From a phage, in assembly GCA_017864995.1 (NCBI GenBank), contig GCA_017864995.1_4097.1: a stretch of 64,000 nt of DNA; one strand, written 5' to 3'. A program made the translations under genes and the position numbers. Under the pieces are notes generated by a model that was not told where the DNA came from, ran no database searches, and saw only the letters and a list, made by a program, of their open reading frames with translations. Shown piece by piece: positions 6,290-34,972 of the stretch. Within the stretch, counting starts at the first letter, position 1, and each line of letters starts with the position of its first letter.

Positions 6290-8230
6290 TAGACAGGGGA
6301 AGCTCCGCAGGGAAAGCATTGGACAGGCTTTAACATATGTTATATATGTTAAAATTCAGCCTGGACAAATGCGATCACTAGGATTCTCCCCAGGCTAAAC
6401 CCCGTAATCATATGTAGTCATAAGTAATCATATATAAACATTTATATGAGCACCGTAGAATCACAGAATGATTATATATGATTCAGTACTGATTATTATA
6501 GACAAGATTACTCAAGAATGCTAGGGAAGGATTCAGTACTGCCCCAAAAGTATTCAGTACTGAAGGTGTCGATATGCCACTAAGTAGGCAGAGGAAGTCT
6601 GCCGTACTTTGTAGTTTCCAAGCTCCTTTTCCAATTTGCAAATTACATCAAATGTAATCAAAAGTAATCACGCAATGATTAGTACTGAATTATTACTTTC
6701 ACCTTAATTACAATTACCCTTTTACCCTTCGGGGTAAAATTCAATTACCCCTTGAGGCTCCAGCAAAAAGTTGGTTAGTACTCCATCCTAAATCTCGATC
6801 CTAAAAATTTTGGAGTACCTATGAAATAAAAGTTGGATCTTCGAAAGTTGAAATTTACGTTGGGACGTTTATGATTTGTGGGATATAATGATGTTTGTAG
6901 TCGGGTAGTTCTCAAGAATATCAGTACTGAAAGATGAAAGAAAGTTATTGACTTTATGATTCAGTACTGTATAATGTTCTACATAGGGTGATGAGTTGCT
7001 GCGAACAATTCATTTACTCTACCTCCTGTCGTGAGACAGTACAGAAAAGATAGTTCCTCCTGTGGTGGTGGTACATCTTTTTGAACCTCATATGAAAATC
7101 GTAATAACAGTACTGATATTAACAGAATGGTGTCAGTACTGATTTTAATCTAAAGCATTATGCCACCAGCTTGTGCTGGTGGATTCCCTCTAACAGTATT
7201 CAGTACTACATGATGGTCTTCATCCTCCTAGGGTAACATAGTGAGGGCTATGATGGCAGTACTGAATACTCCCTTTCAAAAGATAGATCTATGGTATAGT
7301 ACTGACGGATTTTGGGTGTAGTTACCCTGGATGGATTTTGGACGTAGATATGTCTAGCCCTCCAGAAGTCTGGAAGTAAAGATGGCTATCCATCTAGACG
7401 GCTAAACGGCTAGATTTCTGGATGGCTGGATGGCTAGACGTTTGGACGGCTAAACGGCTAGATGGTTACACGTCTGGAAGTATAGACGGCTAAATCAAAA
7501 TTTTATTTTGTTTTTTCCAATAGTTCCCCTACCGCGTGGGGATAGTTTCCCCGCAGTATCTGGTGTTAGATTTTTCTGAATCTGGAATCATTATCTTATA
7601 AACTGGGGGCAATGTCAACGACCTGGACGGATATTTTTAAAAATTTTTTCAGTACTGAATTTTGGGCGTAACTATGCACCCGGTGGGCTTGAGTCTTTCT
7701 CGACTTGATGGAACTATTATACAGTACTGAAAAAATAAAGCAATACCCTGGAAGCAAAAAAGTTTTAATTAATTTGCTTGCTATCCTGGGCCGGACTATG
7801 GTACTATATTTCAGTACTGAGAAAGTGCGTTTACCTGCTAGGGTGCGGGAGTGTATCCTTTTTTTATATCTTGAATTTTGGGCGTAATTCCGCACCCTCT
7901 GGGGTTTCCGCTTTCTCGCGTCTATGTAGTAATTATACGCTTTTTCAGGATCAAGTCAATACCTAAAAACAAAATAATTGAAAATAATTTAACGCGTTTA
8001 AACTGCCCGTAACGCCCTGGAATGATTGGAATGGTGCAAATGTATAGCTTAGGTGTACTAATGCGTTAGAATGCGTCTGAGGCCGTTTTACGGGGTATAG
8101 GGATGATTTAGTGGATTGATTCAGTACTGAATAATAGTACTACTATATAGAAAGATAGTTCCCCTGGATGGTTGCAGTACTGAATGATAGTTTCCCTATA
8201 TAGAAAGAAAACTATTTTAAAAGTATTTGT
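6290..8230. other. ~2 kb non-coding hub with dense palindromes and repeats
   Basis: no RBS-supported ORF; many CAGTACTG palindromes; hairpins incl. TTTTACCC-ttcg-GGGTAAAA at 6720-6739; track ORFs here rejected. Confidence 0.5.
7360..7500. repeat. iteron-like direct repeats (GGCTA core)
   Basis: about 8 copies of r-GA-y-GGCTA-r incl. ACGGCTAAACGGCTAGAT x2 and GTCTGGAAGTA-A/T-AGA-y-GGCTA x2. Confidence 0.5.
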
Positions 8231-8239
8231 AGAAAGTAC

Positions 8240-8267
8240 TTGCACCGTACTGATAAAAGCGTATAAT
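8240..8267 (+). promoter_or_regulatory. class I promoter (TTGCAC-16-TATAAT, then GTTTTACATC)
   Basis: near-consensus hexamers; same cassette recurs upstream of many genes. Confidence 0.6.
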
Positions 8268-8281
8268 GTTTTACATCGAGA

Positions 8282-8298
8282 GCGGGAACTCTTCCCGC
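8282..8298 (+). promoter_or_regulatory. 5'-UTR hairpin GCGGGAA-ctc-TTCCCGC
   Basis: perfect 7-bp inverted repeat ~15 nt after -10; no U-run; RBS follows. Confidence 0.5.
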
Positions 8299-8322
8299 TA
8301 CACTTTAAGAGAGATTAAAACG

Positions 8323-8685
8323 ATGGCAACTCAAATCACCAAAATTATTGCTAACCTGGTTAACTTCCGCGACGAGATGAAAGATCTTCCGGCGGTAACG
8401 GTTAAAACTCACATTGACGCATACCGCGAACTGATTAAAATGCTGCCGCTTAAGCGTGAACAATACGCCGCTACCGTGATGCTTGATGCGATGATCCATA
8501 AGATGATCTCCCATGATTTAACGATGGTTTATCAGTACATGGGCGAAAATTTCGCGGTGTGTAGTACGCCAGTACCAGGGATGGCAACAACTGAGGAATT
8601 GCACGGTTTAAATTTAAAACAAGATGCATGGGATAATATGCCTCGTTTCCTGGTATGGGCTGACAGTGGCAAAATTTACAAATAA
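8323..8685 (+). CDS. hypothetical protein (120 aa)
   Basis: start MATQITK after RBS TAAGAGAG (track start 8266 lies in hairpin). Confidence 0.6.
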   Translation: MATQITKIIANLVNFRDEMKDLPAVTVKTHIDAYRELIKMLPLKREQYAATVMLDAMIHKMISHDLTMVYQYMGENFAVCSTPVPGMATTEELHGLNLKQDAWDNMPRFLVWADSGKIYK

Positions 8686-8699
8686 GTTTAATAAAGTAC

Positions 8700-8727
8700 T
8701 TGCAAACTATGTTTAAAAGCGTATAAT
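8700..8727 (+). promoter_or_regulatory. class I promoter (TTGCAA-16-TATAAT)
   Basis: followed by hairpin GGGGAA-tag-TTCCCC at 8742-8756. Confidence 0.6.
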
Positions 8728-8779
8728 GTTTTACATCAGGTGGGGAATAGTTCCCCACTATAATTAAGAGATTAATTGT

Positions 8780-9013
8780 ATGAGTACTATTTTAACTGTT
8801 TCTCAATCCGTTGCACTGACTGACCTATTAAACGCTTTAAGCCGTTGCACTGAGGTTGGCTTGTTTGATGCGGTTGACGTTGCACCGGACGTTATTAATC
8901 ATTTTTGTGATGCGATGGAAGAATGTAAGGAAGATGATAGCCGTATGATGGCGGTCGCCTTTGAGGAAGTACAGCCAGGTGAGATCAAAGGTTTACCAGT
9001 ACTGAAAAAATAG
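8780..9013 (+). CDS. hypothetical protein (77 aa)
   Basis: MSTILTVSQ; RBS AAGAG; Cys/acidic-rich. Confidence 0.6.
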   Translation: MSTILTVSQSVALTDLLNALSRCTEVGLFDAVDVAPDVINHFCDAMEECKEDDSRMMAVAFEEVQPGEIKGLPVLKK

Positions 9014-9016
9014 TAC

Positions 9017-9044
9017 TTGCAAACTATGTTTAAAGGCGTATAAT
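9017..9044 (+). promoter_or_regulatory. class I promoter (TTGCAA-16-TATAAT)
   Basis: followed by hairpin GGGGAA-tag-TTCCCC at 9059-9073. Confidence 0.6.
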
Positions 9045-9095
9045 GTTTTACATCAGGTGGGGAATAGTTCCCCACTATATAAGAGGATTAAAAAA

Positions 9096-9335
9096 ATGGC
9101 TAAATCAAAAATGTTCTTAGGTCACAAAAACAAAACTCATTGGAATGTAAGCCTTTGGATTAATAACGATGAGGGATTGTATCGGTTGGCCCTGGATTTT
9201 ATTAACGATAACACTAATCGCAATGATGCGGCCCGTCATATGATGTTATTTTTAGAACAGACTGGACAAGATAAAACACCGGACGGATTCAAATATAGCA
9301 CTACTGCGATCCGTGCGGCGATGGTTGGAATGTAA
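9096..9335 (+). CDS. hypothetical protein, paralog of 11133-11372
   Basis: MAKSKMFLGHKNKTHWNVSLWINN...TPDGFKYSTTAIRAAMVGM shared with 11133 gene. Confidence 0.6.
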   Translation: MAKSKMFLGHKNKTHWNVSLWINNDEGLYRLALDFINDNTNRNDAARHMMLFLEQTGQDKTPDGFKYSTTAIRAAMVGM

Positions 9336-9349
9336 TAGAATTTATTTAA

Positions 9350-9383
9350 AGTACTATCATTTTTTGCGATAGTACTTTATAAT
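9350..9383 (+). promoter_or_regulatory. class II promoter (AGTACT...AGTACT-tt-TATAAT)
   Basis: two AGTACT hexamers 21 bp apart, second abutting TATAAT; weak -35. Confidence 0.4.
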
Positions 9384-9420
9384 AGTGTTTTATTCATACA
9401 CCAACGATAAGGGCAACAGC

Positions 9421-9687
9421 ATGAATATTAAGTATTTTGCGACGCGTGAACAAGCTCGGATCGCCGCACGCCAGGACGGGGCAACGTTTAAAGATATGGG
9501 CGTACAATCGGAACGTGGTAAACGTTGGGCCATTGTAAAGCGTAGTACCGCCAGATCATTACAGTACTGGTTAGCGGCCTTAAAAAGTCCCGATAGTGTA
9601 TCGCGTCGAGTGGTAGAAATAAAGCTCGACCGAAAGGGCAACCGCGTGACCGTGTACCGTACTAAAAAGATTGCAGTACTTGAATAA
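9421..9687 (+). CDS. hypothetical protein, paralog of 21258-21653
   Basis: MNIKYFATREQARIAARQDGATFKDMG...RKGNRVTVYRTKK shared with 21258 gene. Confidence 0.6.
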   Translation: MNIKYFATREQARIAARQDGATFKDMGVQSERGKRWAIVKRSTARSLQYWLAALKSPDSVSRRVVEIKLDRKGNRVTVYRTKKIAVLE

Positions 9688-9694
9688 AAAGTAC

Positions 9695-9722
9695 TTGCAA
9701 ACTATGTTTAAAGGCGTATAAT
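9695..9722 (+). promoter_or_regulatory. class I promoter (TTGCAA-16-TATAAT)
   Basis: followed by hairpin GCGGGAA-ctc-TTCCCGC at 9737-9753. Confidence 0.6.
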
Positions 9723-9774
9723 GTTTTACATCGAGAGCGGGAACTCTTCCCGCCTATAACCTGGAGTAATAAAA

Positions 9775-10005
9775 ATGACTAATATGTATATGACTGAAGT
9801 TAAAACCGTAAAAGATACTACCACGAATAAAACTACTTACTTACAGCGGATCTGTGGTGTATGGCAACGTATCAGCAAATCAAAGTACTTTAAATTAACA
9901 TCATATGCAAATCGTTCGGATTCATTCAGTACTGAAATAAAAGGTAATAAAGTACACCAATACGGCACTTATTATTATTATAGCCTGGACGCGATTGCAG
10001 TATAA
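9775..10005 (+). CDS. hypothetical protein (76 aa)
   Basis: MTNMYMTEVK; RBS CTGGAG. Confidence 0.55.
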   Translation: MTNMYMTEVKTVKDTTTNKTTYLQRICGVWQRISKSKYFKLTSYANRSDSFSTEIKGNKVHQYGTYYYYSLDAIAV

Positions 10006-10252
10006 GCAGTTTACAAATCTTTACAATTGCCGGTATTGACTTATTTTGTCAGTACTGGCATAATGTATTCATTGGCAGATAAGCCGTAGCCCATAGGGTG
10101 CGGGAGTGTATCTATAGCAAAATTAGTTTAGTATAGTTACAATTGTGCACCCGGTGGGTTAGCTGTTGTCATGGGGTATATTATGCCAGTACTTGATAAT
10201 GCTGTCAATACTTTTTTACTATTCAGTACTGAAAACTATTTTTAAAAAGTAC

Positions 10253-10280
10253 TTGCAAACTATGTTTAAAGGCGTATAAT
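10253..10280 (+). promoter_or_regulatory. class I promoter (TTGCAA-16-TATAAT)
   Basis: drives conserved leader element 10291-10369. Confidence 0.5.
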
Positions 10281-10290
10281 GTTTTACATC

Positions 10291-10369
10291 AGGACGGGGA
10301 ACGAAATAAGTAACTTCCCGTTAAGTAGCCCAGGAGTAAGGCACACGAAAAACTCCCCTGATAAAATAG
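10291..10369 (+). ncRNA. candidate structured leader/sRNA element (copy 1)
   Basis: AGGACGGGGAACGAAATAAGTAAC..CCCGTTAAGTAG..CAGGAGTAAG..ACGAAAAACTCCCCTG; near-identical copy at 20066-20143. Confidence 0.3.
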
Positions 10370-10370
10370 T

Positions 10371-10398
10371 TTGACAATAGAAAGTAAAAGCGTATAAT
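10371..10398 (+). promoter_or_regulatory. promoter TTGACA-16-TATAAT
   Basis: second promoter immediately upstream of 10431 gene. Confidence 0.5.
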
Positions 10399-10430
10399 AC
10401 TTACATCAACTACTGAATGAGGGTTACAAA

Positions 10431-11042
10431 ATGAAAACTATCACTACTACTACTTTTGTTATGGCTTTTTCTGAACTGAACGCAGAACAAAAAACGGCGG
10501 CTATCGAACTGGTTCGGGATCGTGAGCGTTCATGTGAGGATAATTTCTTTGCTGAGGGCGTTATCGAGTACTATAAAGAAACAGTACTACCAGAATACGG
10601 CATAGATGAAGCTGAATTGCAATACAGTGGTTTTTGGTCGCAAGGTGACGGTGCATCAATCAGTACTGACCACGTTGACGCAGTGAAGTTTTTACGCAAG
10701 GTAAGAGCATTAACTAAGTATCGCTCAATCCGTCACTTGCTGAATGAAGATGATTTGGCGATGAGTGTAGAACGTTCACACTCTCGCTACGCACACGAAA
10801 ACACGGTAAGCGGGTACATTGAATCGGCTTACACTGATTTAACCGCAAAACAAGAAACGTTAGTTAATGAGCTTGAGGAACTACTCACTGATACTATTCG
10901 TGAATTGTCCCGCAAGTTGTACCGTGATTTAGAGAATGCATATGAGGATCAATTCACTACTGAAAACATTACGGCACTGATTGAGGGTAACGAATATCAA
11001 TTCAATGTTATTGATGGCGTAGTGGAATCAATCGAATATTAA
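10431..11042 (+). CDS. hypothetical acidic protein (203 aa)
   Basis: MKTITTTTFVMAF; largest gene in this block; function unknown. Confidence 0.6.
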   Translation: MKTITTTTFVMAFSELNAEQKTAAIELVRDRERSCEDNFFAEGVIEYYKETVLPEYGIDEAELQYSGFWSQGDGASISTDHVDAVKFLRKVRALTKYRSIRHLLNEDDLAMSVERSHSRYAHENTVSGYIESAYTDLTAKQETLVNELEELLTDTIRELSRKLYRDLENAYEDQFTTENITALIEGNEYQFNVIDGVVESIEY

Positions 11043-11054
11043 TTTAAAAAGTAC

Positions 11055-11082
11055 TTGCAAACTAAGTTTAAAAGCGTATAAT
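11055..11082 (+). promoter_or_regulatory. class I promoter (TTGCAA-16-TATAAT)
   Basis: followed by hairpin GGCGGGGA..TCCCCGC. Confidence 0.6.
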
Positions 11083-11132
11083 ACTTTACATCAAGGCGGG
11101 GAGTGGTTCCCCGCTCAAACGAGGATTTAAAA

Positions 11133-11372
11133 ATGGCTAGTACTAAAACTTACAACGGACACAAAAACAAAACTCATTGGAATGTAAGCCTTTGGATTAA
11201 TAACGGTGAGTCATTGTATCGGCTTGCTCAAAGTTGCATCGCACAAAGTAGAACTAAAGATATTGCTGCGGAATGTATGTACCGCAGATTAAAAGCCAAC
11301 GGTACTACTACAACGCCGGACGGCTTTAAGTATAGCACTACTGCGATCCGTGCTGCAATGGTTGGAATGTAA
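11133..11372 (+). CDS. hypothetical protein, paralog of 9096-9335
   Basis: MASTKTYNGHKNKTHWNVSLWINN...; start at RBS-supported internal Met. Confidence 0.6.
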   Translation: MASTKTYNGHKNKTHWNVSLWINNGESLYRLAQSCIAQSRTKDIAAECMYRRLKANGTTTTPDGFKYSTTAIRAAMVGM

Positions 11373-11392
11373 TATTCAGTACTGAGATAATG

Positions 11393-11415
11393 GCGGGTAA
11401 TAGTTCCCGCCTTTA
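11393..11415 (+). terminator. intergenic hairpin GGCGGG-N7-CCCGCC (weak terminator or processing site)
   Basis: same hairpin type as the 5'-UTR hairpins but no promoter; weak T-run. Confidence 0.3.
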
Positions 11416-11429
11416 CTGAGGGTTATCTA

Positions 11430-11690
11430 ATGAGTAAAGTAATTAGCTATACAGCACTAAGCAAGACATTATCTATTAGCCAGTGCACCGATGGTTATTG
11501 GCTATTTGATGAAACGCGTGGCATGAATTTAGCCATGCGTGCAAAAACTGCTGAGGCGGCGTATCTTGAAGCATTGGAATACTACCAGGAACGTTTAAAG
11601 GAAGTAGAAGAAGATTATAAAAGCCTCAAAGCGAAAGTAGATCATTTCGTCGGTCAATTCATCGAGGAAGACGACGACAAACAATATTGA
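11430..11690 (+). CDS. hypothetical protein (86 aa)
   Basis: MSKVISYTALSK; RBS GAGGG. Confidence 0.55.
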   Translation: MSKVISYTALSKTLSISQCTDGYWLFDETRGMNLAMRAKTAEAAYLEALEYYQERLKEVEEDYKSLKAKVDHFVGQFIEEDDDKQY

Positions 11691-11776
11691 AAAAGTACTT
11701 GCAATTAGTTTTCAGTACTGTATAATGGTTTACATCAAAGGGAGAAATGGTTCTCCCTGGTAATGAGGAAAATACA

Positions 11777-11998
11777 ATGGCTAATATCACTACTCTTTCC
11801 CAACTGGAAGCACTGGTTAAATCTATGCGGGAACATGCCGACAAAATCGGCGTACAAGATCCAGCCGTTTGCTTCTGCGACGAATTGAATGATGATACCC
11901 TGGTAATAGCAGAAGTCCAGGACGTTTCTAACTATTCCTCGCGTTACACTGGCGGCGTAGCAAATAAAGGCGACTTCTGTTTATACCTTACAAAATAA
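11777..11998 (+). CDS. hypothetical protein (73 aa)
   Basis: start MANITTLSQ after class I promoter plus hairpin GGGAGAA..TTCTCCC. Confidence 0.55.
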   Translation: MANITTLSQLEALVKSMREHADKIGVQDPAVCFCDELNDDTLVIAEVQDVSNYSSRYTGGVANKGDFCLYLTK

Positions 11999-12002
11999 CA
12001 AC

Positions 12003-12035
12003 GCGGGGAGATAATAACTCCCCGTTACTTTTTCA
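12003..12035 (+). terminator. rho-independent terminator
   Basis: GGGGAG-ataataa-CTCCCC followed by TTACTTTTT. Confidence 0.5.
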
Positions 12036-12240
12036 GTACTGAATCATTTAATAGACGGATCTCGGCACCCGGTGGGTTAGTGACTGTTTCGTCTTGATGT
12101 AGTAATTATGCCAGTACTGGATGCACTTGTCAACAACTATTTTTCAAATACTTTTTATTAAAATACTTGCAATTAGTTTTTAAACGCGTATAATGTTTTG
12201 CATAGGGGGAGCGGTTCCCCTGGTAACTAAGGATAATCAA

Positions 12241-12540
12241 ATGAAAATTACAATCATCGCCCTGGCTTTATCTGTTTCCTCTTTCGCTGTTAATGCGTCA
12301 TTAGATGTAAGTAGTGAAAAATTCATTCAGTGCACTGTTGCAATGACCGATGAAAGTACTGGCGAGATTGTATTAAAGGATCTGGAGATTCAGCCGGAAG
12401 CATTTAAAAACGGCCCGTTCCATGAAGAAGACGAAAACGGTAGCACGACAATTTATTATGATGCCAGTACTAAACGCGGTTCGGTCACTGTCATGGATAC
12501 TGAGAAAGTAACTCATACCGGCGTTATTAATTGCCGTTGA
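12241..12540 (+). CDS. small secreted/periplasmic protein (signal peptide)
   Basis: start MKITIIALALSVSSFAVNA-SLD, typical signal peptide; class I promoter plus hairpin upstream. Confidence 0.55.
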   Translation: MKITIIALALSVSSFAVNASLDVSSEKFIQCTVAMTDESTGEIVLKDLEIQPEAFKNGPFHEEDENGSTTIYYDASTKRGSVTVMDTEKVTHTGVINCR

Positions 12541-12561
12541 TAGATACTACGGGGTAACATC

Positions 12562-12792
12562 ATGACTAAGCGAATTGTTTTACTTAACGAAAGCAGTACT
12601 ACACAACTACTTAACGCCGTGCATTATGATATTGAAACGAGCGTTAATCTTATCAGTACTGTAGTACTGTTGGACACTGGAAAGGTCGCCAATGATAAAG
12701 CGATTGCAGGTATATTAACGGATCTTGAGCCTGGTCGCAGTGCACCAATAACGTTAAATTGTAAAGTGTTTAATATTTTACTCACTGATTAA
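12562..12792 (+). CDS. hypothetical protein (76 aa)
   Basis: MTKRIVLLNESS; followed by strong terminator. Confidence 0.5.
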   Translation: MTKRIVLLNESSTTQLLNAVHYDIETSVNLISTVVLLDTGKVANDKAIAGILTDLEPGRSAPITLNCKVFNILLTD

Positions 12793-12798
12793 GTACAT

Positions 12799-12826
12799 AG
12801 CCCACCTGGTGGGCTTTTTTGTTTTT
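12799..12826 (+). terminator. rho-independent terminator
   Basis: AGCCCACC-t-GGTGGGCT then TTTTTTGTTTTT. Confidence 0.7.
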
Positions 12827-12874
12827 GTAGTATCGTAGTACTGAGATACTTTGAAAATAGTTTTAAGAAAGTAG

Positions 12875-12902
12875 TTGACATTACCGCAGAAAAGCGTAGA
12901 AT
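12875..12902 (+). promoter_or_regulatory. promoter TTGACA-16-TAGAAT
   Basis: followed by ~110-nt leader related to the 10291/20066 elements. Confidence 0.45.
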
Positions 12903-13031
12903 GTATTACATCAAGACGGGGAGCACTAAGTAGACCGCCAGTAAGTCGAACGAAAAACTGGACACGTCGAGAAAACTTTGATACACTAATAAACGTAAAC
13001 GTAAACTTAACTTTAATTGAGGATTTATAAA

Positions 13032-13514
13032 ATGGCTAATGTAAAATCATTCATCAAAGCACTGGTAGCAAATGAAACTAACGTCGCGGCTGAGATCCTG
13101 GCTGAACTGGATAACGATACCATGAAAGCGGTACGCAATAATTTTAACATCGCGTACAGTACTGCGAAAGAACTACAAGCAAATAAAGCGGCAGAAATTG
13201 AAGCGGCAAAGGCGGCCCGTGAAGCAGAACTAAAAGCAACAATTGAAAGTATCCAGGCGGCAGTAGTTGGATTGGATCTGGAAGTAGTTACAGAGATGGC
13301 ACAAAAAGCCCTGGCGGTTAAGTATGGGGAAGACAAGCCAGAAGTAAAAGCCAAAAAATGGATTCAGGAACGCGTAGCGGTAGTACTGGACAACGGGGAA
13401 GAATATCTGATTCCGGTGCGTGGTAACTGCATTGCGGTAGTACTGGACGCGATTAACTCCAGTGGTATGACTCGCGAGGAATGGATCGAAGCTCATCGCA
13501 AAGTTGAAGCATAA
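13032..13514 (+). CDS. hypothetical Ala/Glu/Lys-rich coiled-coil-like protein
   Basis: MANVKSFIKAL...AAEIEAAKAAREAELKATIESIQAA; RBS GAGGA. Confidence 0.6.
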   Translation: MANVKSFIKALVANETNVAAEILAELDNDTMKAVRNNFNIAYSTAKELQANKAAEIEAAKAAREAELKATIESIQAAVVGLDLEVVTEMAQKALAVKYGEDKPEVKAKKWIQERVAVVLDNGEEYLIPVRGNCIAVVLDAINSSGMTREEWIEAHRKVEA

Positions 13515-13535
13515 CAATTAAAGTACTGAATCACT

Positions 13536-13566
13536 AGCCCACCTTAAACGGTGGGCTTTTTTGTGT
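13536..13566 (+). terminator. rho-independent terminator
   Basis: AGCCCACC-ttaaac-GGTGGGCT then TTTTTTGTGTTT. Confidence 0.7.
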
Positions 13567-13716
13567 TTATCGTTTACCAGGCCACCAGCACCGCCTAGAA
13601 ACGATTCTAACGCATTAAACTGATTATCTGATGCATTGCCCTAGCTGGTGGCGGTAAGGTCGTTGTAATGCGATTGAGAGCGTTTAAAGTATTTTGCAAA
13701 AAGTAATAAAAAGTAC

Positions 13717-13744
13717 TTGCACGATTAAGAGATTAGCGTATAAT
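13717..13744 (+). promoter_or_regulatory. class I promoter (TTGCAC-16-TATAAT)
   Basis: followed by hairpin GAGAGGGGGAA..TTCTCC. Confidence 0.55.
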
Positions 13745-13799
13745 GTTTTACATCGAGAGGGGGAAACGGTTCTCCTTCCAAATCAAAGGAATCAAAACA

Positions 13800-14027
13800 A
13801 TGGCTATTATCATTACTCGCGTATCTGGTACTACTGGCAACGAACAAGTAGTTGCAGTCATTACCATCAAGGAAGGTGCGGAATTGCAAAATGCAATGAA
13901 TACCTGGGCCGTTAATGAGTTCGGTCAGTGGGCAAGTGTAGCATACATTGAAACCTATCAAGTGCCGTCGATTAGTTTAACTGATTTGGGCGTTGAGCGT
14001 ATCCTTTGCCTTGATGAATTAAATTAA
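13800..14027 (+). CDS. hypothetical protein (75 aa)
   Basis: start MAIIITRVSG (track start 13743 lies in promoter/hairpin). Confidence 0.55.
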   Translation: MAIIITRVSGTTGNEQVVAVITIKEGAELQNAMNTWAVNEFGQWASVAYIETYQVPSISLTDLGVERILCLDELN

Positions 14028-14112
14028 AAAGTACTTGCAAAGTAAATCGAATAAAGTATAATACATTACATCAAGGGGAGAAAATGGTTCTCCCCACTAC
14101 AAGGAAACTAAA

Positions 14113-14256
14113 ATGAAAACTTGTCAATGTGGTCAGAAATCTATTACTGGTTTAAAGCGGGGCGTTGCACTTTGCCAGTACCATTATAATTTACAAGTAT
14201 GGGGTAAAGAATGGGCCGACCAGGTGGAAGCAGCAAAGAAAGCAAAAAGTAAGTAA
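14113..14256 (+). CDS. tiny Cys-containing protein (47 aa, below track cutoff)
   Basis: MKTCQCGQKS...LCQYHYN; own class I promoter plus hairpin upstream. Confidence 0.45.
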   Translation: MKTCQCGQKSITGLKRGVALCQYHYNLQVWGKEWADQVEAAKKAKSK

Positions 14257-14275
14257 AAATATTATCACAGTACTA

Positions 14276-14304
14276 TTGACATAGTTTGATAGTACTGGCA
14301 TAAT
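14276..14304 (+). promoter_or_regulatory. class II promoter (AGTACTaTTGACA-N9-gatAGTACTGg-CATAAT)
   Basis: TTGACA-17-CATAAT flanked by two AGTACT; near-identical copies at 17116 and 25293. Confidence 0.5.
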
Positions 14305-14345
14305 AGATTTTATCAAGACAACATATTAATTTAAGGAATACTAAA

Positions 14346-14669
14346 ATGGCTAAAACTATCATTAACACCGTTTCCCTGGCTGCAATCCGTGCAATCAATG
14401 TTGACGGTAAACGTTGGACTGATTCATATGGCAATACTTATCATTCTTGTCATGTAAGCGTCGAACTGGATAACGGTTTGAATGATCTGGCGGTTGAATC
14501 ATTTACTTATGGCTATGAAGATGCATATCAACAAACGGCGTTAGATCTATTAAAGGAATCAGTAGACGGGCTTAATACTGATGAAACCTCCCTTACTCGT
14601 TTGTGCAATGATCTTAATATCCCGTTGCATTGTACTGTACATAATGTTAAACGCAAAAAAGATCTTTAA
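14346..14669 (+). CDS. hypothetical protein, paralog of 20839-21162
   Basis: shared RWTDSYGNTYHSC..FTYGY..VKRKKD with 20839 gene. Confidence 0.6.
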   Translation: MAKTIINTVSLAAIRAINVDGKRWTDSYGNTYHSCHVSVELDNGLNDLAVESFTYGYEDAYQQTALDLLKESVDGLNTDETSLTRLCNDLNIPLHCTVHNVKRKKDL

Positions 14670-14749
14670 TTAGCTTTACTTTATGCAGATACTTTGATAT
14701 AGTGTCTGCATAGGGGAAAGAAATTAAATTAACTTAAGAGGAACGTATA

Positions 14750-15019
14750 ATGAAAAATATCAGTACTTTAATCGATGCAGGTACTCATGTTCGTCGGTCT
14801 ATGGTTGCAACCAGTACTACAAAACAAGTACCAAGCGGTTATCTTGTATTTGTGTACGATGGTAAACTCCTGGAACGTTCAATCAATTTTGATGTTAAAA
14901 ACAATTGCCGTTTTATTATCTTTAAGCGTGAACAATATAAAATTGATTTACCAGCAAAGCCCATAAGCGGGGCGTACAACGTGCAATCATTGTTTGAACG
15001 TCAACCATACACCTATTAA
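14750..15019 (+). CDS. hypothetical protein (89 aa)
   Basis: MKNISTLIDAG; RBS AAGAGGAA. Confidence 0.55.
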   Translation: MKNISTLIDAGTHVRRSMVATSTTKQVPSGYLVFVYDGKLLERSINFDVKNNCRFIIFKREQYKIDLPAKPISGAYNVQSLFERQPYTY

Positions 15020-15070
15020 TCAAAACATCGTTAGCGGTCGATTTAGGCCGCTTATATTGGGGATTATACC

Positions 15071-15343
15071 ATGAACGTTAATCAAGTACTGAATGAAGTT
15101 GAAAGCATCATTAAACCAATGAAACGCATTGATGCTATGTTAACACCGGAAGAATGCCGCCTTTATGAGCGTTACAGCGTCGAACAAGTCCAGGCGATGG
15201 CTATGGCTACCCCAGCCGTTAAACCGCCTGAGAATGCGTTACAGGACGTTACAGGGGATTATATCATCAATCCAGTACTAGGGAAGATGGCTGCAATCAC
15301 CGAAGATCAACAAGACTACTTAAGCCAGTACTTAAAAGGTTAA
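15071..15343 (+). CDS. hypothetical protein (90 aa)
   Basis: MNVNQVLNEVES; RBS GGGGA. Confidence 0.55.
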   Translation: MNVNQVLNEVESIIKPMKRIDAMLTPEECRLYERYSVEQVQAMAMATPAVKPPENALQDVTGDYIINPVLGKMAAITEDQQDYLSQYLKG

Positions 15344-15348
15344 TTAAT

Positions 15349-15558
15349 ATGCTTACTGTACAGGATAAGATCGACATCTTAAAGGTTAATATGTATGTGA
15401 TTGATGCAGTACCTGGTAAAGTATTTGCATACGATGACACCACTGTAAGCGATTTCTACTATAGCCAGGACGTGGGGGATCTTTCTGTACAGTCGGTTAT
15501 TGAAAACGTAGTTAATGCAGCGTATGAGCATTTACTTTCAAATAGTACTTGCAATTAG
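15349..15558 (+). CDS. hypothetical protein (69 aa)
   Basis: MLTVQDKIDILK; closely follows upstream gene. Confidence 0.5.
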   Translation: MLTVQDKIDILKVNMYVIDAVPGKVFAYDDTTVSDFYYSQDVGDLSVQSVIENVVNAAYEHLLSNSTCN

Positions 15559-15627
15559 TTTTTAAACGCGTATAATGTTTTACATGAAGGGGAGAAATGA
15601 TTCTCCCCACTAATTAAGGAATATGAA

Positions 15628-15774
15628 ATGAAAGCATCAAAAAAGAGTAATACTAAGAAAGCACGTTCACCTTTCGCTGGGGTATTCCCTTTACGTTTCG
15701 TTGATGAAGTAGTTTCCTACCCGCCGGGCCTTACTCCTGAGATGGTAGAAAGTTTGCGTAAATCTAAAAAATAG
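15628..15774 (+). CDS. small basic protein (48 aa, below track cutoff)
   Basis: MKASKKSNTKKARSPFAG...; class I promoter plus hairpin GGGGAGAA..TTCTCCCC upstream. Confidence 0.45.
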   Translation: MKASKKSNTKKARSPFAGVFPLRFVDEVVSYPPGLTPEMVESLRKSKK

Positions 15775-15855
15775 TACTTGCAATTAGTTTTTAGTACTGT
15801 ATAATGTTTTACATGAAGGGGAGAAATGATTCTCCCCAATAACAGGAGAATCAAA

Positions 15856-16008
15856 ATGAAACAATACAACGCTCGGTTTGATGTTACTATCGGTAACGGC
15901 AAAGGTCAATTCTCTTTCAGTACTCGCAAAAGTTATACAGAAAACTTCCTGCGTAATTGTGCACTGACCGCCGCACAAATTAAACATTATTTTCAGGCTA
16001 AAAAATGA
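15856..16008 (+). CDS. hypothetical protein (50 aa)
   Basis: start MKQYNARFD after RBS CAGGAGAA; class I promoter plus hairpin upstream. Confidence 0.5.
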   Translation: MKQYNARFDVTIGNGKGQFSFSTRKSYTENFLRNCALTAAQIKHYFQAKK

Positions 16009-16094
16009 AAACATTAGCTTACTATAGTTCGGCCCTGGTCGGTGCATTGATCGCGGCGTTGTTAGTAACCTATCTATTCTTTATGGTGATTTAA
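16005..16094 (+). CDS. candidate 29-aa single-pass membrane peptide
   Basis: MKTLAYYSSALVGALIAALLVTYLFFMVI; ATGA overlap with upstream stop. Confidence 0.35.
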   Translation: MKTLAYYSSALVGALIAALLVTYLFFMVI

Positions 16095-16238
16095 ATGAAT
16101 CCAACAGGTTTAAACTATAAAAGTTGTTCGGCATTTACGAAAGCAAATAAAGCGAATGCACGTAAAGCGAAAGTACAAGAATACATCAAGCAAGGCATGA
16201 CGCGAAAGGCGGCGATTCTAAAAGCTAAAAATAAATGA
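16095..16238 (+). CDS. small basic protein (47 aa)
   Basis: MNPTGLNYKSCSAFTKANKANARKAKVQEYIKQG; abuts upstream ORF. Confidence 0.4.
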   Translation: MNPTGLNYKSCSAFTKANKANARKAKVQEYIKQGMTRKAAILKAKNK

Positions 16239-16459
16239 AAAAAGTGGTTGACTCCGGTCAGCCATTTTGCTATTATATATTCATTGAGAGATAGCTCACT
16301 AGCCCACAGGGTGCATAAGTGTATCTATTATATAAGTATTGAGTACTGAAAACTATTTTAAAAGTATTTGTAGAAAGTACTTGCAAACTATCTCAATAAG
16401 CGTATAATGTTTTACATCGAAAGGGGAAACGGTTTCCCCTGGTAATAAGGAAACGAATC

Positions 16460-16801
16460 ATGACTATCTCAATTGCTCAATCTAACTTTGAAAATGAAAT
16501 CATCGCCCAGGCACTGCGTTTAAATGATGGTCGGGCCGAAATTAATTACGGTTTCAATTCAGGCGGTTGCGAAAACTATCAGTACTTTGTAACGGCTGAT
16601 GGCGGTGTCCTGGGTATCAATACAGTTATTGTAAACATCCAAAAAATTAATTTCAATGATCCAGACGATAGCCAGTTTTACATCACTGGCGTAGACGTGA
16701 ACTATGAGGATGACTCACTAACTGATGATTACACTGGCGAGCGGTTAGAAAGTGCATACGGTGAAGATGATTATCAGTCCGGTCCAGAAGATTTCGAATA
16801 A
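16460..16801 (+). CDS. hypothetical acidic protein (113 aa)
   Basis: MTISIAQSNF; Asp/Glu-rich C-term; class I promoter plus hairpin upstream. Confidence 0.6.
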   Translation: MTISIAQSNFENEIIAQALRLNDGRAEINYGFNSGGCENYQYFVTADGGVLGINTVIVNIQKINFNDPDDSQFYITGVDVNYEDDSLTDDYTGERLESAYGEDDYQSGPEDFE

Positions 16802-16897
16802 TATAAAAAAATAGTTTGACAATAGATTATAGTACTGTATAATAGTTTACATCAAGGGGAGAGATGATTCTCCCCACTAACAGAGAGAGAAAACAAA

Positions 16898-17110: not shown

Positions 17111-17193
17111 AAATATTATCACAGTACTATTGACATAGTTTGATAGTACTGACATAATAACTTTTATCAACTACACTACTAAGGAATTAAAAA

Positions 17194-17607: not shown

Positions 17608-17613
17608 TATTAT

Positions 17614-34133: not shown

Positions 34134-34349
34134 ATGAAAAGATTATCATACGAAGATTATCGCAAGATTCGCGGTATGTTGCGACCAGAAATTCAAAGAA
34201 TTAATTCACTTCCTATATCTAATGCAGAATGTTCAGTACTGAAAGATGAGTTAATATTAAAACACACAGTAGGAACTAACTATCAAGCTGATAGTGTTCG
34301 ATATCTAATTTGGGGATTAATATGCATAATAAAGTCCAGACAAGCTTGA
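34134..34349 (+). CDS. Fam2 small protein (dispersed copy)
   Basis: HTVGTNYQADSV. Confidence 0.5.
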   Translation: MKRLSYEDYRKIRGMLRPEIQRINSLPISNAECSVLKDELILKHTVGTNYQADSVRYLIWGLICIIKSRQA

Positions 34350-34374
34350 CAGTACTTTTCATTACTGATATAGT
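34346..34374 (+). promoter_or_regulatory. promoter TTGACA-17-TGaTATAGT
   Basis: extended -10; upstream of 34404 ORF. Confidence 0.5.
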
Positions 34375-34403: not shown

Positions 34404-34649
34404 ATGTTGAATTTTTTAAATTTCCTTATCGTCTTGTGTATTGTTCTTGGGATTGCACCATTTGTATTGTATTTCATGGAGTCCGATGAAATGCAAAAGA
34501 TGAATTGCACAAGGACAGGACAGAGTAGAGAAGAGACGATTCTTATGCCTGTTACCGTTATTGTTAATAATATGCCCATTACAAACATGGTCCCTACCCT
34601 AACGACAACGTACCAGTACTCTTGTACAGACGGAGAGAGGTGGAGATAA
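34404..34649 (+). CDS. small membrane protein (N-terminal TM helix)
   Basis: MLNFLNFLIVLCIVLGIAPFVLYF hydrophobic segment; own promoter. Confidence 0.45.
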   Translation: MLNFLNFLIVLCIVLGIAPFVLYFMESDEMQKMNCTRTGQSREETILMPVTVIVNNMPITNMVPTLTTTYQYSCTDGERWR

Positions 34650-34972
34650 TGCGTAAGTTCAATTGTATTGTACGTAAGAATTCATGTTACATTGTAGTAG
34701 CTGATTTTAATACAGGTTCTGGGTTGAAGATATTTGAGTACAGAAAATGCAATAATTCTTTTCATTGGAAATTGGGTGCAAGAAAAGCAAAAACAATTTC
34801 AGTACCGAATTTATGTTCTATCTCTGAAGAAGAAGAGTTTCAGTACTTGTTAGTACATGATGATTCTTTAGGATTTACATTCGAAGACATGAAGGAAGTA
34901 CAAAAGCAGATGATTGCACATTGTCATCTTCCAAAGAATTTTGTTCAACACGTATGTGAATTCTACATATAA
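34649..34972 (+). CDS. Fam3 protein
   Basis: SEEEEFQYLLVHDD; start MRKFNCIV after RBS GAGAGAGGTGGAG (track 34622). Confidence 0.55.
   Translation: MRKFNCIVRKNSCYIVVADFNTGSGLKIFEYRKCNNSFHWKLGARKAKTISVPNLCSISEEEEFQYLLVHDDSLGFTFEDMKEVQKQMIAHCHLPKNFVQHVCEFYI

What the first reader, a model, noticed from the sequence alone, without database searches (positions are those of the whole stretch)
12241..12540. Predicted secreted or membrane small proteins
Seen: 12241-12540 begins MKITIIALALSVSSFAVNA-SLD, a typical Sec signal peptide with A-x-A-like cleavage site; 16005-16094 is a 29-aa peptide that is essentially one hydrophobic helix; 34404-34649 begins with a 20-residue hydrophobic segment and has its own promoter. 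Established: phages often use small envelope proteins for superinfection exclusion or lysis control.
Basis: partly seen in the sequence, partly recalled or inferred. Interest (0 to 1): 0.4.

Follow-up and report, generated by a model that had tools for sequence, protein, structure and literature searches.

The report
Three small early phage envelope proteins
Three small genes in the early region of an E. coli jumbo phage really do encode proteins aimed at the cell envelope (one periplasmic, two membrane-anchored), but none belongs to a family of known function, and a public record's label of the first as T4 "Spackle" is wrong.

Summary
The window comes from an Asteriusvirus-group E. coli jumbo phage (121Q/PBECO4/G17 relatives).

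- ORF1 (12241-12540, 99 aa) has a Sec-type leader (predicted cut VNA|SLD). Its mature domain is a confidently modelled all-beta domain bracketed by two invariant cysteines. In 22 relatives at about 30% identity the leader is always kept, as an A-x-A site or, in three members, a lipobox.
- ORF2 (16005-16094, 29 aa) is one hydrophobic helix. It is translationally coupled to both neighbouring genes and under purifying selection (pN/pS 0.21), so it is a real gene.
- ORF3 (34404-34649, 81 aa) is a signal-anchor followed by a small domain with two invariant cysteines and a C-terminal RWR. Its family (phrog_8826) occurs in several unrelated phage groups.

Each ORF is driven by a strong sigma-70-type promoter. 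ORF1 and ORF2 lie inside the ~21 kb direct terminal repeat.

Function is not established. GenBank's "protein spackle" label on the fEgEco12 ortholog of ORF1 fails direct tests: only the leader aligns, and the fold class differs. MliC, the PDB and PADLOC also give nothing.

The best reading is immediate-early envelope remodelling, with exclusion-type roles most likely. That part is inference. The finding is ordinary in kind and modest in interest.

The parts
12167..12194 (+). Sigma-70-type promoter of the ORF1 unit (TTGCAA, 16-nt spacer, TATAAT). It is one copy of a repeated early-promoter cassette.
12203..12222 (+). GC-rich 8-bp hairpin predicted near the 5' end of the ORF1 transcript (RNAfold -11.4 kcal/mol)
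   Evidence: sequence
12241..12297 (+). ORF1 signal peptide, codons 1-19 (MKITIIALALSVSSFAVNA), with a predicted signal peptidase I cut after Ala19
   Evidence: A leader is kept in all 22 family members. AF2 leaves residues 1-23 unstructured.
12298..12540 (+). ORF1 mature chain (80 aa) plus stop codon. It is an all-beta six-strand domain with invariant Cys31 and Cys98 and a conserved HEED-x-x-GSTT hairpin. It belongs to phrog_31669.
12562..12792 (+). 76-aa ORF co-transcribed with ORF1. It matches no family and has no hydrophobic segment.
12799..12815 (+). Intrinsic terminator that closes the ORF1 bicistronic unit (AGCCCACCTGGTGGGCT followed by a T-run). The terminator of the preceding unit is at 12003-12025.
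15778..15805 (+). Promoter of the ORF2 operon (the same cassette), followed by the hairpin GGGGAGAaatgaTTCTCCCC
15856..16008 (+). 50-aa basic protein (phrog_7119). Its TGA stop overlaps the ATG of ORF2 (ATGA).
16005..16094 (+). ORF2: a 29-aa single-helix hydrophobic peptide (MKTLAYYSSALVGALIAALLVTYLFFMVI)
16095..16238 (+). 47-aa basic protein (phrog_29913). It starts immediately after the ORF2 stop (TAAATG).
16241..16268 (+). 12-bp-stem terminator-like hairpin that closes the ORF2 operon. A TTGACT-17-TATTAT promoter-like motif overlaps it (16248-16276).
34346..34374 (+). Promoter of ORF3 (TTGACA, 17-nt spacer, TATAGT, with TGn extended -10). No leader hairpin follows it.
   Evidence: read from the sequence
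34404..34649 (+). ORF3: 81-aa protein with an N-terminal transmembrane segment (about residues 2-25) and a C-terminal domain carrying invariant Cys35, Cys74 and a terminal RWR. It belongs to phrog_8826.
34649..34972 (+). 107-aa downstream gene whose ATG overlaps the ORF3 stop (TAATG). It resembles neighbouring ~110-aa genes.

Best explanation
Three unrelated small genes of an Asteriusvirus-type jumbo phage each send a small protein to the E. coli envelope at the start of infection. Host RNA polymerase is predicted to transcribe all three from strong sigma-70-type promoters.

ORF1
- It is made with a Sec-type leader, exported, and cut by signal peptidase I after Ala19.
- The 80-residue mature chain folds in the periplasm into a compact six-strand beta domain.
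- A Cys31-Cys98 disulfide probably staples the first strand to the last.

ORF2
- It is a 29-residue peptide that inserts into the inner membrane as a single helix, probably with the N-terminus on the cytoplasmic side.
- It is made by translational coupling between two small basic proteins.

ORF3
- It is an inner-membrane protein with an uncleaved N-terminal signal-anchor.
- Its roughly 55-residue C-terminal domain, with a Cys35-Cys74 pair, is probably periplasmic.

What is shown and what is inferred
- Shown by computation: the genes are real, the targeting signals are conserved, the ORF1 fold is confidently predicted, and the promoter and operon anatomy is as described.
- Inferred: early timing, the disulfides, the membrane topology, and above all the function.

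My committed guess is that these proteins remodel the envelope immediately after infection. For ORF1 I favour an exclusion-type role that works like T4 Spackle or T5 Llp without being related to them: it would bind a periplasmic target, such as the periplasmic face of a receptor or an incoming phage's wall-degrading enzyme, and so block later infections or protect progeny. I put about 0.85-0.9 on genes and localisation and about 0.3-0.35 on the exclusion function.
For: Identity of the genome
- The region is 94-98% identical to Asteriusvirus-group phages such as vB_Ec-M-J, BF17 and fEgEco12.

ORF1
- The leader obeys the n/h/c rules.
- Eight close orthologs keep the leader, C31 and C98.
- In 22 representatives at about 30% identity, every member has a +1/+2 n-region, a 9-18 aa h-region, and either an A-x-A-type site or a lipobox. 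Three have the lipobox: P0019, P0027 and P0028, with LSGC or LTGC. Mature cysteine counts are always even, 2 or 4.
- The Muenster homolog is annotated in its record as a SignalP-positive putative secreted protein.
- The AF2 model has pLDDT above 90 over residues 29-99, six strands, and a disordered leader.

ORF2
- The start and stop overlap or abut the neighbouring genes: ATGA at the start, TAAATG at the end.
- The frame is open in 8 distinct DNA versions. Eight of 12 variable sites are third codon positions, and the amino-acid changes are all conservative.
- pN/pS is 0.21 in frame, against 0.8-2.4 with stop codons in the other two frames.
- It is present in 35 records.

ORF3
- It matches phrog_8826 at E = 8e-28.
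- Homologs occur in Seuratvirus, Loughboroughvirus, Nimduovirus and Vequintavirinae.
- The hydrophobic segment varies in sequence, while C35, C74 and the C-terminal RWR are invariant.
- AF2 gives a helix over residues 2-33 followed by a beta hairpin.
- S144 ORF65 is annotated with Phobius and TMHMM predictions of a non-cytoplasmic domain.

Timing
- Promoters and terminators frame each transcription unit.
- ORF1 and ORF2 lie inside the direct terminal repeat. [quoted passage not shown] Window mapping is, and both ORFs occur at two places per record.
- In the related jumbo phage CBB, RpoD-like promoters cluster over short hypothetical ORFs near and in the terminal repeat, and the authors read these as early host-takeover genes (PMC5259590).

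Functional analogy
- T4 Spackle is an early periplasmic protein of 75 aa with one disulfide (PMC7677548).
- T5 Llp is a small periplasm-facing outer-membrane lipoprotein with an intramolecular disulfide, expressed early according to a study cited in that paper (PMC9586334).
Against: - No functional evidence of any kind exists for any of the three families.
- No homology to Spackle, MliC or anything in the PDB.
- No significant structural neighbour for ORF1 outside its own family. The best PDB hit is E = 0.019 with TM 0.30, and the BFVD hits are all uncharacterised viral proteins, the strongest being clear homologs.
- Nothing in PADLOC.
- ORF1 is not next to a receptor-binding-protein gene, as llp is in T5. 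Its neighbours are all small proteins of unknown function.
- Early timing is inferred from promoter type and position, not from transcript data.
- The ORF3 model is poor (pLDDT 66). Some annotated homologs have acidic N-terminal extensions that blur the positive-inside argument, although those annotated starts may be too far upstream.
- The disulfides could not be checked on model coordinates.
Confidence: 0.6

Rival explanations
1. ORF1 is a homolog of T4 Spackle, as its fEgEco12 ortholog g10 is labelled in GenBank, and inhibits the tail-tip lysozyme of superinfecting phage.
For: The record annotation reads 'protein spackle'. There is a weak hit to phrog_1586 'spackle periplasmic'. Size, leader, single cysteine pair and early periplasmic logic are all similar.
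Against: - The phrog_1586 hit has E = 0.22 and covers only residues 1-40, mostly the leader.
- BLASTP against verified T4 Spackle finds no alignment even at E <= 100.
- The family-profile comparison aligns only 15 leader residues, at probability 37%.
- Spackle is an alpha-helical bundle (PMC7677548), while ORF1 is all-beta at pLDDT above 90.
- No Spackle chain is among the 50 PDB matches listed, and none reaches E <= 0.001.

Homology is rejected. A non-homologous inhibitor of a wall-degrading enzyme is still possible at the level of mechanism.
Confidence: 0.03
2. ORF1 works like T5 Llp or the Cor proteins. [quoted passage not shown] This blocks re-infection and stops progeny being inactivated by receptor in cell debris.
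For: - Three members of the ORF1 family are lipoproteins with a lipobox in place of the A-x-A site.
- Four members also give weak hits (best E 0.017) to the Pfam lipoprotein attachment-site model.
- ORF1 is a small, disulfide-containing domain facing the periplasm, which is the class of protein described for Llp (PMC9586334).
Against: - No sequence or fold link to Llp or Cor was found, and Llp itself was not directly compared.
- ORF1 in this phage is soluble, not lipidated.
- The gene is not next to a receptor-binding-protein gene, whereas llp lies next to pb5.
- The receptor of this phage is unknown to me.
Confidence: 0.15
3. The membrane proteins ORF2 and/or ORF3 control lysis, as a holin, antiholin or spanin-like component.
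For: Lysis proteins are typically small membrane proteins. From my own knowledge, the T4 antiholin RI has an N-terminal anchor and a small periplasmic domain, which is the layout of ORF3.
Against: - Both genes sit in sigma-70-promoter early-type units among small proteins of unknown function. No neighbour is annotated or matched as an endolysin or holin in the window or in the homolog loci from Seurat, SD04, N1M2, ABPH49 and S144.
- The periplasmic part of ORF3 is about 55 aa and predicted to be beta, not the long coiled coil of an i-spanin.
- ORF2 has only one helix and no charged C-terminal tail.
Confidence: 0.1
4. ORF2 is a host-directed membrane peptide. Either it is a toxin-like depolariser that helps shut the host down, or it is a small regulatory subunit that binds a host inner-membrane transporter or sensor.
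For: - It is a 29-aa single helix with strong predicted membrane insertion (dG -3.35).
- It is tightly conserved (at least 86% identity over 35 records) and under purifying selection.
- It lies in the terminal-repeat early region.
- From my own knowledge, bacterial peptides of this size such as TisB, KdpF and PmrR act in exactly these ways.
Against: No homolog was found outside the genus. The only family hit is a weak phrog_32088 match at E = 0.006. Nothing points to a particular target.
Confidence: 0.2
5. One or more of the ORFs are chance open frames in AT-rich DNA, which favours hydrophobic codons, and are not genes.
For: ORF2 is only 29 codons. It is left unannotated in several records, including vB_Ec-M-J, 121Q and PBECO4. 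It has no clear Shine-Dalgarno sequence of its own.
Against: - ORF1 and ORF3 have protein-level homologs down to about 30% identity with invariant cysteines.
- ORF2 keeps an open frame, shows pN/pS of 0.21 in its own frame only, and exactly fills the gap between two coupled genes.
- ORF2 is annotated in fEgEco12, E9.1 and JP4.
Confidence: 0.03

Closest known systems
T4 Spackle (Sp, gp61.3): periplasmic superinfection-exclusion protein that inhibits the gp5 tail lysozyme
   Same: Both are early phage genes. Both have a cleavable N-terminal export signal, a mature chain of about 75-80 residues, and one cysteine pair joining the N- and C-terminal parts (C29-C81 in Spackle, C31/C98 in ORF1). Both act in the periplasm (PMC7677548).
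   Different: There is no sequence similarity beyond the leader. The fold class is opposite: alpha-helical bundle versus six-strand all-beta. The families are different (phrog_1586 versus phrog_31669). No target is known for ORF1.
[quoted passage not shown]
   Same: Both are small, disulfide-containing and periplasm-facing and are made early. Some members of the ORF1 family are lipoproteins.
   Different: ORF1 of this phage has a signal peptidase I site and no lipobox. It is not adjacent to a receptor-binding-protein gene. No sequence or structure relation was found.
Bacterial periplasmic lysozyme inhibitors (MliC/PliC, Ivy, PliG, PliI)
   Same: They are small, exported, mostly beta proteins with a conserved loop between antiparallel strands, and some are lipoproteins (as described in PMC7677548). 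ORF1 has a strongly conserved acidic hairpin, HEED-x-x-GSTT, between strands 3 and 4.
   Different: The profile comparison with a verified MliC sequence aligns only the leader, at probability 2.6%. No member of the family hits Pfam MliC. No MliC, PliC or Ivy chain is among the 50 PDB matches listed.
Small single-helix membrane peptides of bacteria and phages, such as TisB, KdpF and AcrZ-type peptides (recalled from my own knowledge, not tested)
   Same: ORF2 has the same size and the same single-helix layout.
   Different: There is no sequence relation. ORF2 is confined to one phage genus.
phrog_31669, phrog_8826, phrog_7119 and phrog_29913: existing phage protein families of unknown function
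   Same: ORF1 matches phrog_31669 (E = 2e-61), ORF3 matches phrog_8826 (E = 8e-28), and the two operon partners of ORF2 match phrog_7119 and phrog_29913.
   Different: These families carry no functional annotation, so membership says nothing about function.

Membership tests
T4 Spackle (phrog_1586) | Significant sequence similarity across the mature domain | tested here: not met
   The phrog_1586 hit has E = 0.22 over residues 1-40 only. BLASTP gives no alignment. hhalign aligns 15 leader residues at probability 37%. The T4 sequence used was verified at 100% identity to T4 orf 61.3.
T4 Spackle (phrog_1586) | Compact alpha-helical bundle fold | tested here: not met
   The ORF1 model is six beta strands plus one 4-residue helix, with pLDDT above 90. 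Spackle's fold is described in PMC7677548. No PDB match reaches E <= 0.001, and no Spackle chain is among the 50 matches listed.
T4 Spackle (phrog_1586) | Cleavable periplasmic export signal and one intramolecular disulfide | tested here: met
   Leader rules are met and two cysteines are invariant. The feature is shared, but it is generic to exported proteins.
T4 Spackle (phrog_1586) | Binds and inhibits the tail-tip (gp5-type) lysozyme | not testable with these tools
   This needs biochemistry or complex modelling.
MliC/PliC lysozyme inhibitors (PF09864) | Match to the MliC profile or sequence | tested here: not met
   No Pfam MliC hit for any of the 22 members. hhalign against a verified E. 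coli MliC aligns the leader only.
Sec-dependent secreted protein (signal peptidase I substrate) | Positively charged n-region, 7-15 residue hydrophobic h-region, small residues at -3/-1, no Pro at +1 | tested here: met
   ORF1 has MK(+1), a 15-aa uncharged h-region, and VNA|S. The same plan is seen in all 22 relatives. The Muenster homolog is SignalP-positive in its record. No dedicated predictor was run here.
Bacterial lipoprotein (signal peptidase II substrate) | Lipobox L-[AST]-[GA]-C at the end of the leader | tested here: not met
   The window's ORF1, ORF2 and ORF3 have no lipobox. Three distant ORF1 relatives do (P0019, P0027, P0028).
phrog_31669 (unknown function) | Full-length profile match | tested here: met
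   E = 2.1e-61 over residues 1-98 of 99.
phrog_8826 (unknown function) | Full-length profile match | tested here: met
   E = 8.3e-28 over residues 2-81. Homologs were aligned.
T5 Llp / Cor exclusion lipoproteins | Lipoprotein, sequence relation to Llp or Cor, and a gene next to the receptor-binding-protein gene | tested here: inconclusive
   No lipobox in the window protein and no receptor-binding-protein gene nearby. The Llp sequence itself was not compared. No FhuA-Llp entry is among the 50 PDB fold matches listed.
Holin / antiholin / spanin lysis proteins | Location in or near a lysis cassette, late expression, and characteristic topology | tested here: not met
   The units are early-type with sigma-70 promoters. 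No neighbour is annotated or matched as a lysis gene in the window or in five homolog loci. Expression timing itself was not measured.

The most novel reading that the evidence does not exclude
The ORF1 family is a previously unrecognised class of phage periplasmic effector. It is rare: 25 clusters at 50% identity among 1.84 billion representative proteins. It has no significant structural neighbour and exists in both soluble and lipoprotein forms. Large enterobacterial myoviruses express it from the first DNA to enter the cell, in two copies in the terminal repeat, to shut the envelope against further infection or to neutralise an envelope-based host defence. It would do this with a fold and a target different from Spackle, Llp/Cor and Imm.
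Probability: 0.2. Interest if true: 0.55.

Novelty: new member of a known kind. Interest (0 to 1): 0.27.

Why it matters
Envelope-targeted early proteins are how phages such as T4 and T5 close the door behind them, and very few have been characterised. Here they are rare, about 3 of roughly 190 genes in 64 kb, so these three are a short and concrete list to test for exclusion or envelope takeover in a jumbo-phage group being considered for therapy. The work also corrects a "protein spackle" label in a public record, which rests on signal-peptide similarity and could spread to other annotations. If ORF1 had a new periplasmic target, the result would be of moderate interest. As it stands, this is a sound but ordinary prediction about hypothetical proteins.

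Tried and rejected
- Spackle homology for ORF1: rejected.
- MliC/PliC lysozyme-inhibitor homology: rejected.
- Pfam on ORF1, ORF2 and ORF3: only sub-threshold noise, for example DUF4969 at E = 0.04 against a cut-off of 31.4 bits. Pfam on all 22 ORF1-family members found nothing real beyond the lipoprotein-site model.
- PDB sequence searches with the single ORF1 sequence and with the ORF1 and ORF3 family profiles: nothing significant. The best hits were SlpX at E = 0.023 and ThreeFoil at E = 0.17.
- Foldseek of the ORF1 model against the PDB: no hit at E <= 0.001. The top hits were LolA at TM 0.30 and the Cap15 barrel at TMq 0.47, which are generic small beta-barrel or sheet resemblances.
- Foldseek against the viral library BFVD: the strongest hits are clear homologs (for example the 121Q ortholog at 78% identity) and every hit is uncharacterised.
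- PADLOC defence models: no hits for the three ORFs or for three of their operon partners.
- Plasmid collection: no ORF1 relatives.
- Genomic context of distant ORF1 relatives: only arrays of small hypothetical genes, so no functional clue.
- My first promoter pattern had the wrong spacer length and found nothing. It was corrected.
- Two literature searches were too broad or malformed.
- The fEgEco12 and Sharanji papers do not discuss these genes.
- The ungapped pN/pS figure for the gene downstream of ORF2 is unreliable because of length differences between phages, and I ignore it.
Full report
**What the window is.** The region around the finding is 94-98% identical to Escherichia jumbo phages of the Asteriusvirus group, including vB_Ec-M-J, BF17, fEgEco12, PBECO4, 121Q and G17. 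In fEgEco12 and vB_Ec-M-J the corresponding genes lie near the left genome end, inside an annotated direct terminal repeat of about 21 kb. [quoted passage not shown] Mapping the window onto fEgEco12 puts the left repeat boundary at about window position 6.2 kb. ORF1 and ORF2 each occur at two places in records that include both repeat copies. ORF3 corresponds to vB_Ec-M-J position 28,327, beyond that phage's repeat end at 21,525, so it is single-copy.

- ORF1 begins MKITIIALALSVSSFAVNA|SLD. It has one positive charge at the N-terminus, a 15-residue uncharged hydrophobic stretch, and V-N-A at positions -3 to -1.
- ORF2 is 29 residues, of which 11-29 form a strongly hydrophobic segment with summed Hessa-scale free energy of -3.35.
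- ORF3 has a hydrophobic stretch at residues 7-25 (-2.36). Its promoter is TTGACA at 34346-34351, a 17-nt spacer, and TATAGT at 34369-34374, with a TG two bases upstream of the -10 element (sequence).

In a rough census of about 196 non-overlapping ORFs in the 64 kb window, only ORF1 and ORF3 show such an N-terminal segment. ORF2 was lost to the overlap filter because of its size. Envelope-directed proteins are therefore uncommon here, not a by-product of AT-rich composition.

**ORF1: gene anatomy.** The unit is bracketed by a terminator of the previous unit at 12003-12025 and a promoter TTGCAA-16-TATAAT at 12167-12194. A GC-rich hairpin is predicted near the 5' end of the transcript. An AAGGA ribosome-binding site lies 7 nt before the ATG at 12241. 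A second 76-codon ORF follows at 12562-12792, and a terminator at 12799-12815 closes the unit. The longer reading frame starting at 12193 cannot be used, because that ATG lies inside the -10 hexamer.

**ORF1: family and export signal.** ORF1 matches phrog_31669, a family of unknown function, at E = 2e-61. Close orthologs at 67-97% identity keep the leader and both cysteines unchanged. More distant relatives at 28-40% identity exist in rV5-like Vequintavirinae (UPEC06, SSBI34, A73), in Klebsiella Alcyoneusvirus Muenster and in Salmonella jumbo phages. Muenster gp039 is annotated 'putative secreted protein' on the strength of a SignalP-type prediction.

An exhaustive profile search of 1.84 billion representative proteins found only 25 clusters, so the family is rare. 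In an alignment of 22 of them:

- Only Cys31, Gly94 and Cys98 are invariant.
- Every member has a leader with a +1 or +2 n-region and a 9-18 residue hydrophobic core.
- Every member has either an A-x-A-type site or, in three members, a lipobox (LSGC or LTGC).
- The number of cysteines after the leader is always 2 or 4.

The leader sequence drifts freely, its form is always kept, and it can be swapped between the two signal-peptidase types. That is the strongest evidence available here that export is the selected property.

**ORF1: fold.** With a 13-sequence alignment, AlphaFold2 models residues 29-99 at pLDDT above 90 as six beta strands with one short helix, and leaves the leader unstructured. 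The two invariant cysteines lie in the first and last strands, so a disulfide staple is likely. I could not measure the distance in the model. Foldseek found no PDB structure at E <= 0.001. The best hits were LolA at TM 0.30 and the Cap15 beta barrel at TMq 0.47, which are generic resemblances. In the viral predicted-structure library the strongest matches were clear homologs, and every match was uncharacterised.

**Is ORF1 Spackle?** GenBank labels the fEgEco12 ortholog (g10) 'protein spackle', and the accompanying paper does not discuss it. I tested the claim directly.

- The only link is a phrog_1586 hit at E = 0.22 covering residues 1-40, which is mostly the signal peptide.
- I recalled the T4 Spackle sequence from memory and verified it as 100% identical to T4 orf 61.3 / sp.
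- BLASTP of that sequence against ORF1 gives no alignment.
- A profile comparison with the ORF1 family aligns only 15 leader residues.
- Published Spackle is a compact alpha-helical bundle of 75 residues with a C29-C81 disulfide (PMC7677548). ORF1 is all-beta.

ORF1 is therefore not a Spackle family member, and the label most likely arose from signal-peptide similarity. The resemblance in plan is real, though. Both are early, exported, about 75-80 residues when mature, and carry one cysteine pair.

**Other candidates for ORF1.** The Spackle paper notes that bacterial lysozyme inhibitors such as MliC, PliC and Ivy are small beta proteins that insert a hairpin loop into the enzyme. ORF1 has a strongly conserved acidic hairpin, HEED-x-x-GSTT. 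However, a verified MliC sequence (PF09864, E = 6e-18) aligns to the ORF1 profile only over the leader, and no family member hits Pfam MliC. T5 Llp is a 61-residue periplasm-facing outer-membrane lipoprotein with an intramolecular disulfide that jams the plug of FhuA (PMC9586334). The lipoprotein variants in the ORF1 family echo this. But the window's protein is not lipidated, and its gene is not next to a receptor-binding-protein gene. PADLOC, the plasmid collection and a PDB profile search gave nothing. Contexts of distant relatives are always runs of small same-strand hypothetical genes in large phage contigs.

**ORF2.** It lies in a three-gene unit.

- The promoter is at 15778-15805 with the same leader hairpin.
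- A 50-codon gene (phrog_7119) ends in a TGA that overlaps the ORF2 ATG (ATGA).
- The ORF2 TAA is followed directly by the ATG of a 47-codon gene (phrog_29913).
- A 12-bp-stem terminator follows at 16241-16268.

ORF2 exactly fills what would otherwise be an 86-nt gap. Several records leave it unannotated (vB_Ec-M-J, 121Q, PBECO4), while others annotate it (fEgEco12, E9.1, JP4). Across eight distinct DNA versions the frame is always open. Eight of 12 variable sites are third codon positions, and the amino-acid changes are K/R, S/T, L/F, L/V and V/I. Pooled pN/pS is 0.21 in the ORF2 frame. In the other two frames it is 2.42 and 0.82, and both contain stop codons. The annotated upstream gene gives 0.10. 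So ORF2 is a real gene. It is found only in this phage group, in 35 records at 86% identity or more. With one lysine at position 2 and a hydrophobic C-terminus, the likely topology is N-terminus in the cytoplasm and a single membrane span.

**ORF3.** It matches phrog_8826 at E = 8e-28. Relatives at 30-40% identity occur in unrelated phage groups: Seuratvirus (Seurat, CAjan, SD04), Loughboroughvirus (S144), Nimduovirus (N1M2), a Vequintavirinae-classified Acinetobacter phage (ABPH49) and Serratia phages.

In the alignment the hydrophobic segment varies in sequence and is 16-24 residues long, with no consistent signal-peptidase site. In the window protein the only candidate site, GIA, is followed by proline. 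The C-terminal domain keeps Cys35, Thr38, Ser41, Thr68, Tyr72, Cys74, Asp76 and a terminal Arg-Trp-Arg. This pattern fits an uncleaved signal-anchor with a small periplasmic, disulfide-bonded domain. S144 ORF65 is annotated with Phobius and TMHMM predictions that agree.

It shows a helix over residues 2-33 and then a beta hairpin. Its fold search was uninformative. The ORF3 stop overlaps the ATG of the next gene (TAATG at 34647-34651). That gene resembles other ~110-residue genes nearby.

**Timing.** Early expression is inferred, not measured. On the plus strand between 6.9 and 25.7 kb there are 28 strong sigma-70-type promoters. That span nearly coincides with the terminal repeat. About 18 of them share a stereotyped leader. 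For the related jumbo phage CBB, RpoD-like promoters were likewise found concentrated over short hypothetical ORFs next to and within its 22 kb terminal repeat, and the authors read these as early host-takeover genes (PMC5259590).

**Most likely mechanism.** Each protein is made by the host transcription and translation machinery soon after DNA entry and is sent to the envelope: ORF1 to the periplasm, ORF2 and ORF3 to the inner membrane. For ORF1 I favour an exclusion-type role in which it binds a periplasmic target, either the inner face of a receptor or the wall-degrading enzyme of an incoming phage. This works like Spackle or Llp without being related to either. I put about 0.3-0.35 on that function and about 0.85-0.9 on the genes and their localisation. 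Alternatives are host shut-off or regulation by a membrane peptide (ORF2), interference with an envelope-based host defence, and, less likely, lysis control.

**Novelty and verdict.** The ORFs are already present in public records as hypothetical proteins, and they belong to existing families of unknown function. What this analysis adds:

- Evolutionary support for export and membrane targeting.
- A confident all-beta model for ORF1 with no significant structural neighbour.
- Proof that the 29-codon ORF2 is a gene.
- The transcription-unit anatomy and placement relative to the terminal repeat.
- Correction of the 'spackle' annotation.

In kind this is ordinary: small phage envelope proteins of unknown function. 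The interest is modest.

Noticed in passing
window 6948-25651, + strand: There are 28 strong sigma-70-type promoters (TTGCAA or TTGACA, 16-nt spacer, TATAAT). About 18 are followed by a stereotyped transcript leader: 'gttttACATCAag', then an 8-bp GC-rich hairpin (GGGGAGA...TCTCCCC-like, -11 to -15 kcal/mol), then a ribosome-binding site and ATG. The span nearly coincides with the ~21 kb direct terminal repeat, and none was found beyond 25.7 kb. The hairpin could stabilise early mRNAs or serve in regulation. I found no description of it in the papers I read.
   Followed up: partly
PP777464.1 (fEgEco12) g10 = L001:2676-2975, ortholog of window 12241-12540: The GenBank product name 'protein spackle' is not supported. 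Only the signal peptide resembles Spackle, and the fold class differs.
   Followed up: yes
L002:10419-10760 (vB_Ec-M-J EcMJ_024, 'DNA ligase', which I take to be the ortholog of window 16460-16801) and L001:8095-8238 (fEgEco12 g027, 'tail fiber protein', which I take to be the ortholog of window 17464-17607): A 113-aa and a 47-aa early-region ORF carry functional names that look implausible for their size. The names are probably automatic mis-annotations like the 'spackle' one.
   Followed up: no
alignment A5: P0019, P0027, P0028: Three distant members of the ORF1 family have a lipobox (LSGC or LTGC) in place of the A-x-A site. Many members also carry a 25-50 residue N-terminal extension with a second cysteine pair (C-x-SNAA-x-FYP-x-C). 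The family has therefore switched between soluble periplasmic and lipid-anchored forms.
   Followed up: partly
window 16241-16268 and 19902-19929: Two near-identical 12-bp-stem terminator-like hairpins (AAAGTGGTTGACTCCGGTCAGCCATTTT and AAAGGGATTGACTCCGGTCAGTCCCTTT) each overlap a TTGACT-17-TATTAT promoter-like motif. They may be combined terminator and promoter elements.
   Followed up: no
window 9057-9335 and 11103-11372: Two paralogous ~90-aa genes inside the terminal repeat share long identical stretches (GHKNKTHWNVSLWINN...TPDGFKYSTTAIRAAMVGM), which points to a gene duplication within the early region.
   Followed up: no
window 32312-35725: This is a dense array of apparent paralogs. At least eight ~70-95-aa proteins share an 'LGT(D/N/Q)xQE' motif (for example 32312-32563, 32760-32975, 32972-33193, 34134-34349 and 35277-35489). 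Four ~105-115-aa proteins share an 'EE(E/Y)FQxSL(V/I/L)xD' motif (33436-33774, 33789-34130, 34649-34972, 34982-35293). ORF3 sits in the middle of this array.
   Followed up: no
window 38754-39095: A 113-aa protein (phrog_36216, E = 2e-69) ends in a hydrophobic tail, FNTVLILVEVILCTACLI. The evidence is weak, because the segment is short and contains a Glu.
   Followed up: partly
L004 (Klebsiella phage Muenster) 2252-2500: Two genes downstream of the ORF1 homolog, the Muenster terminal repeat carries a gene annotated as a YafQ-like ribonuclease toxin, followed by a putative protein kinase. This shows that these repeat regions hold varied host-directed genes.
   Followed up: no
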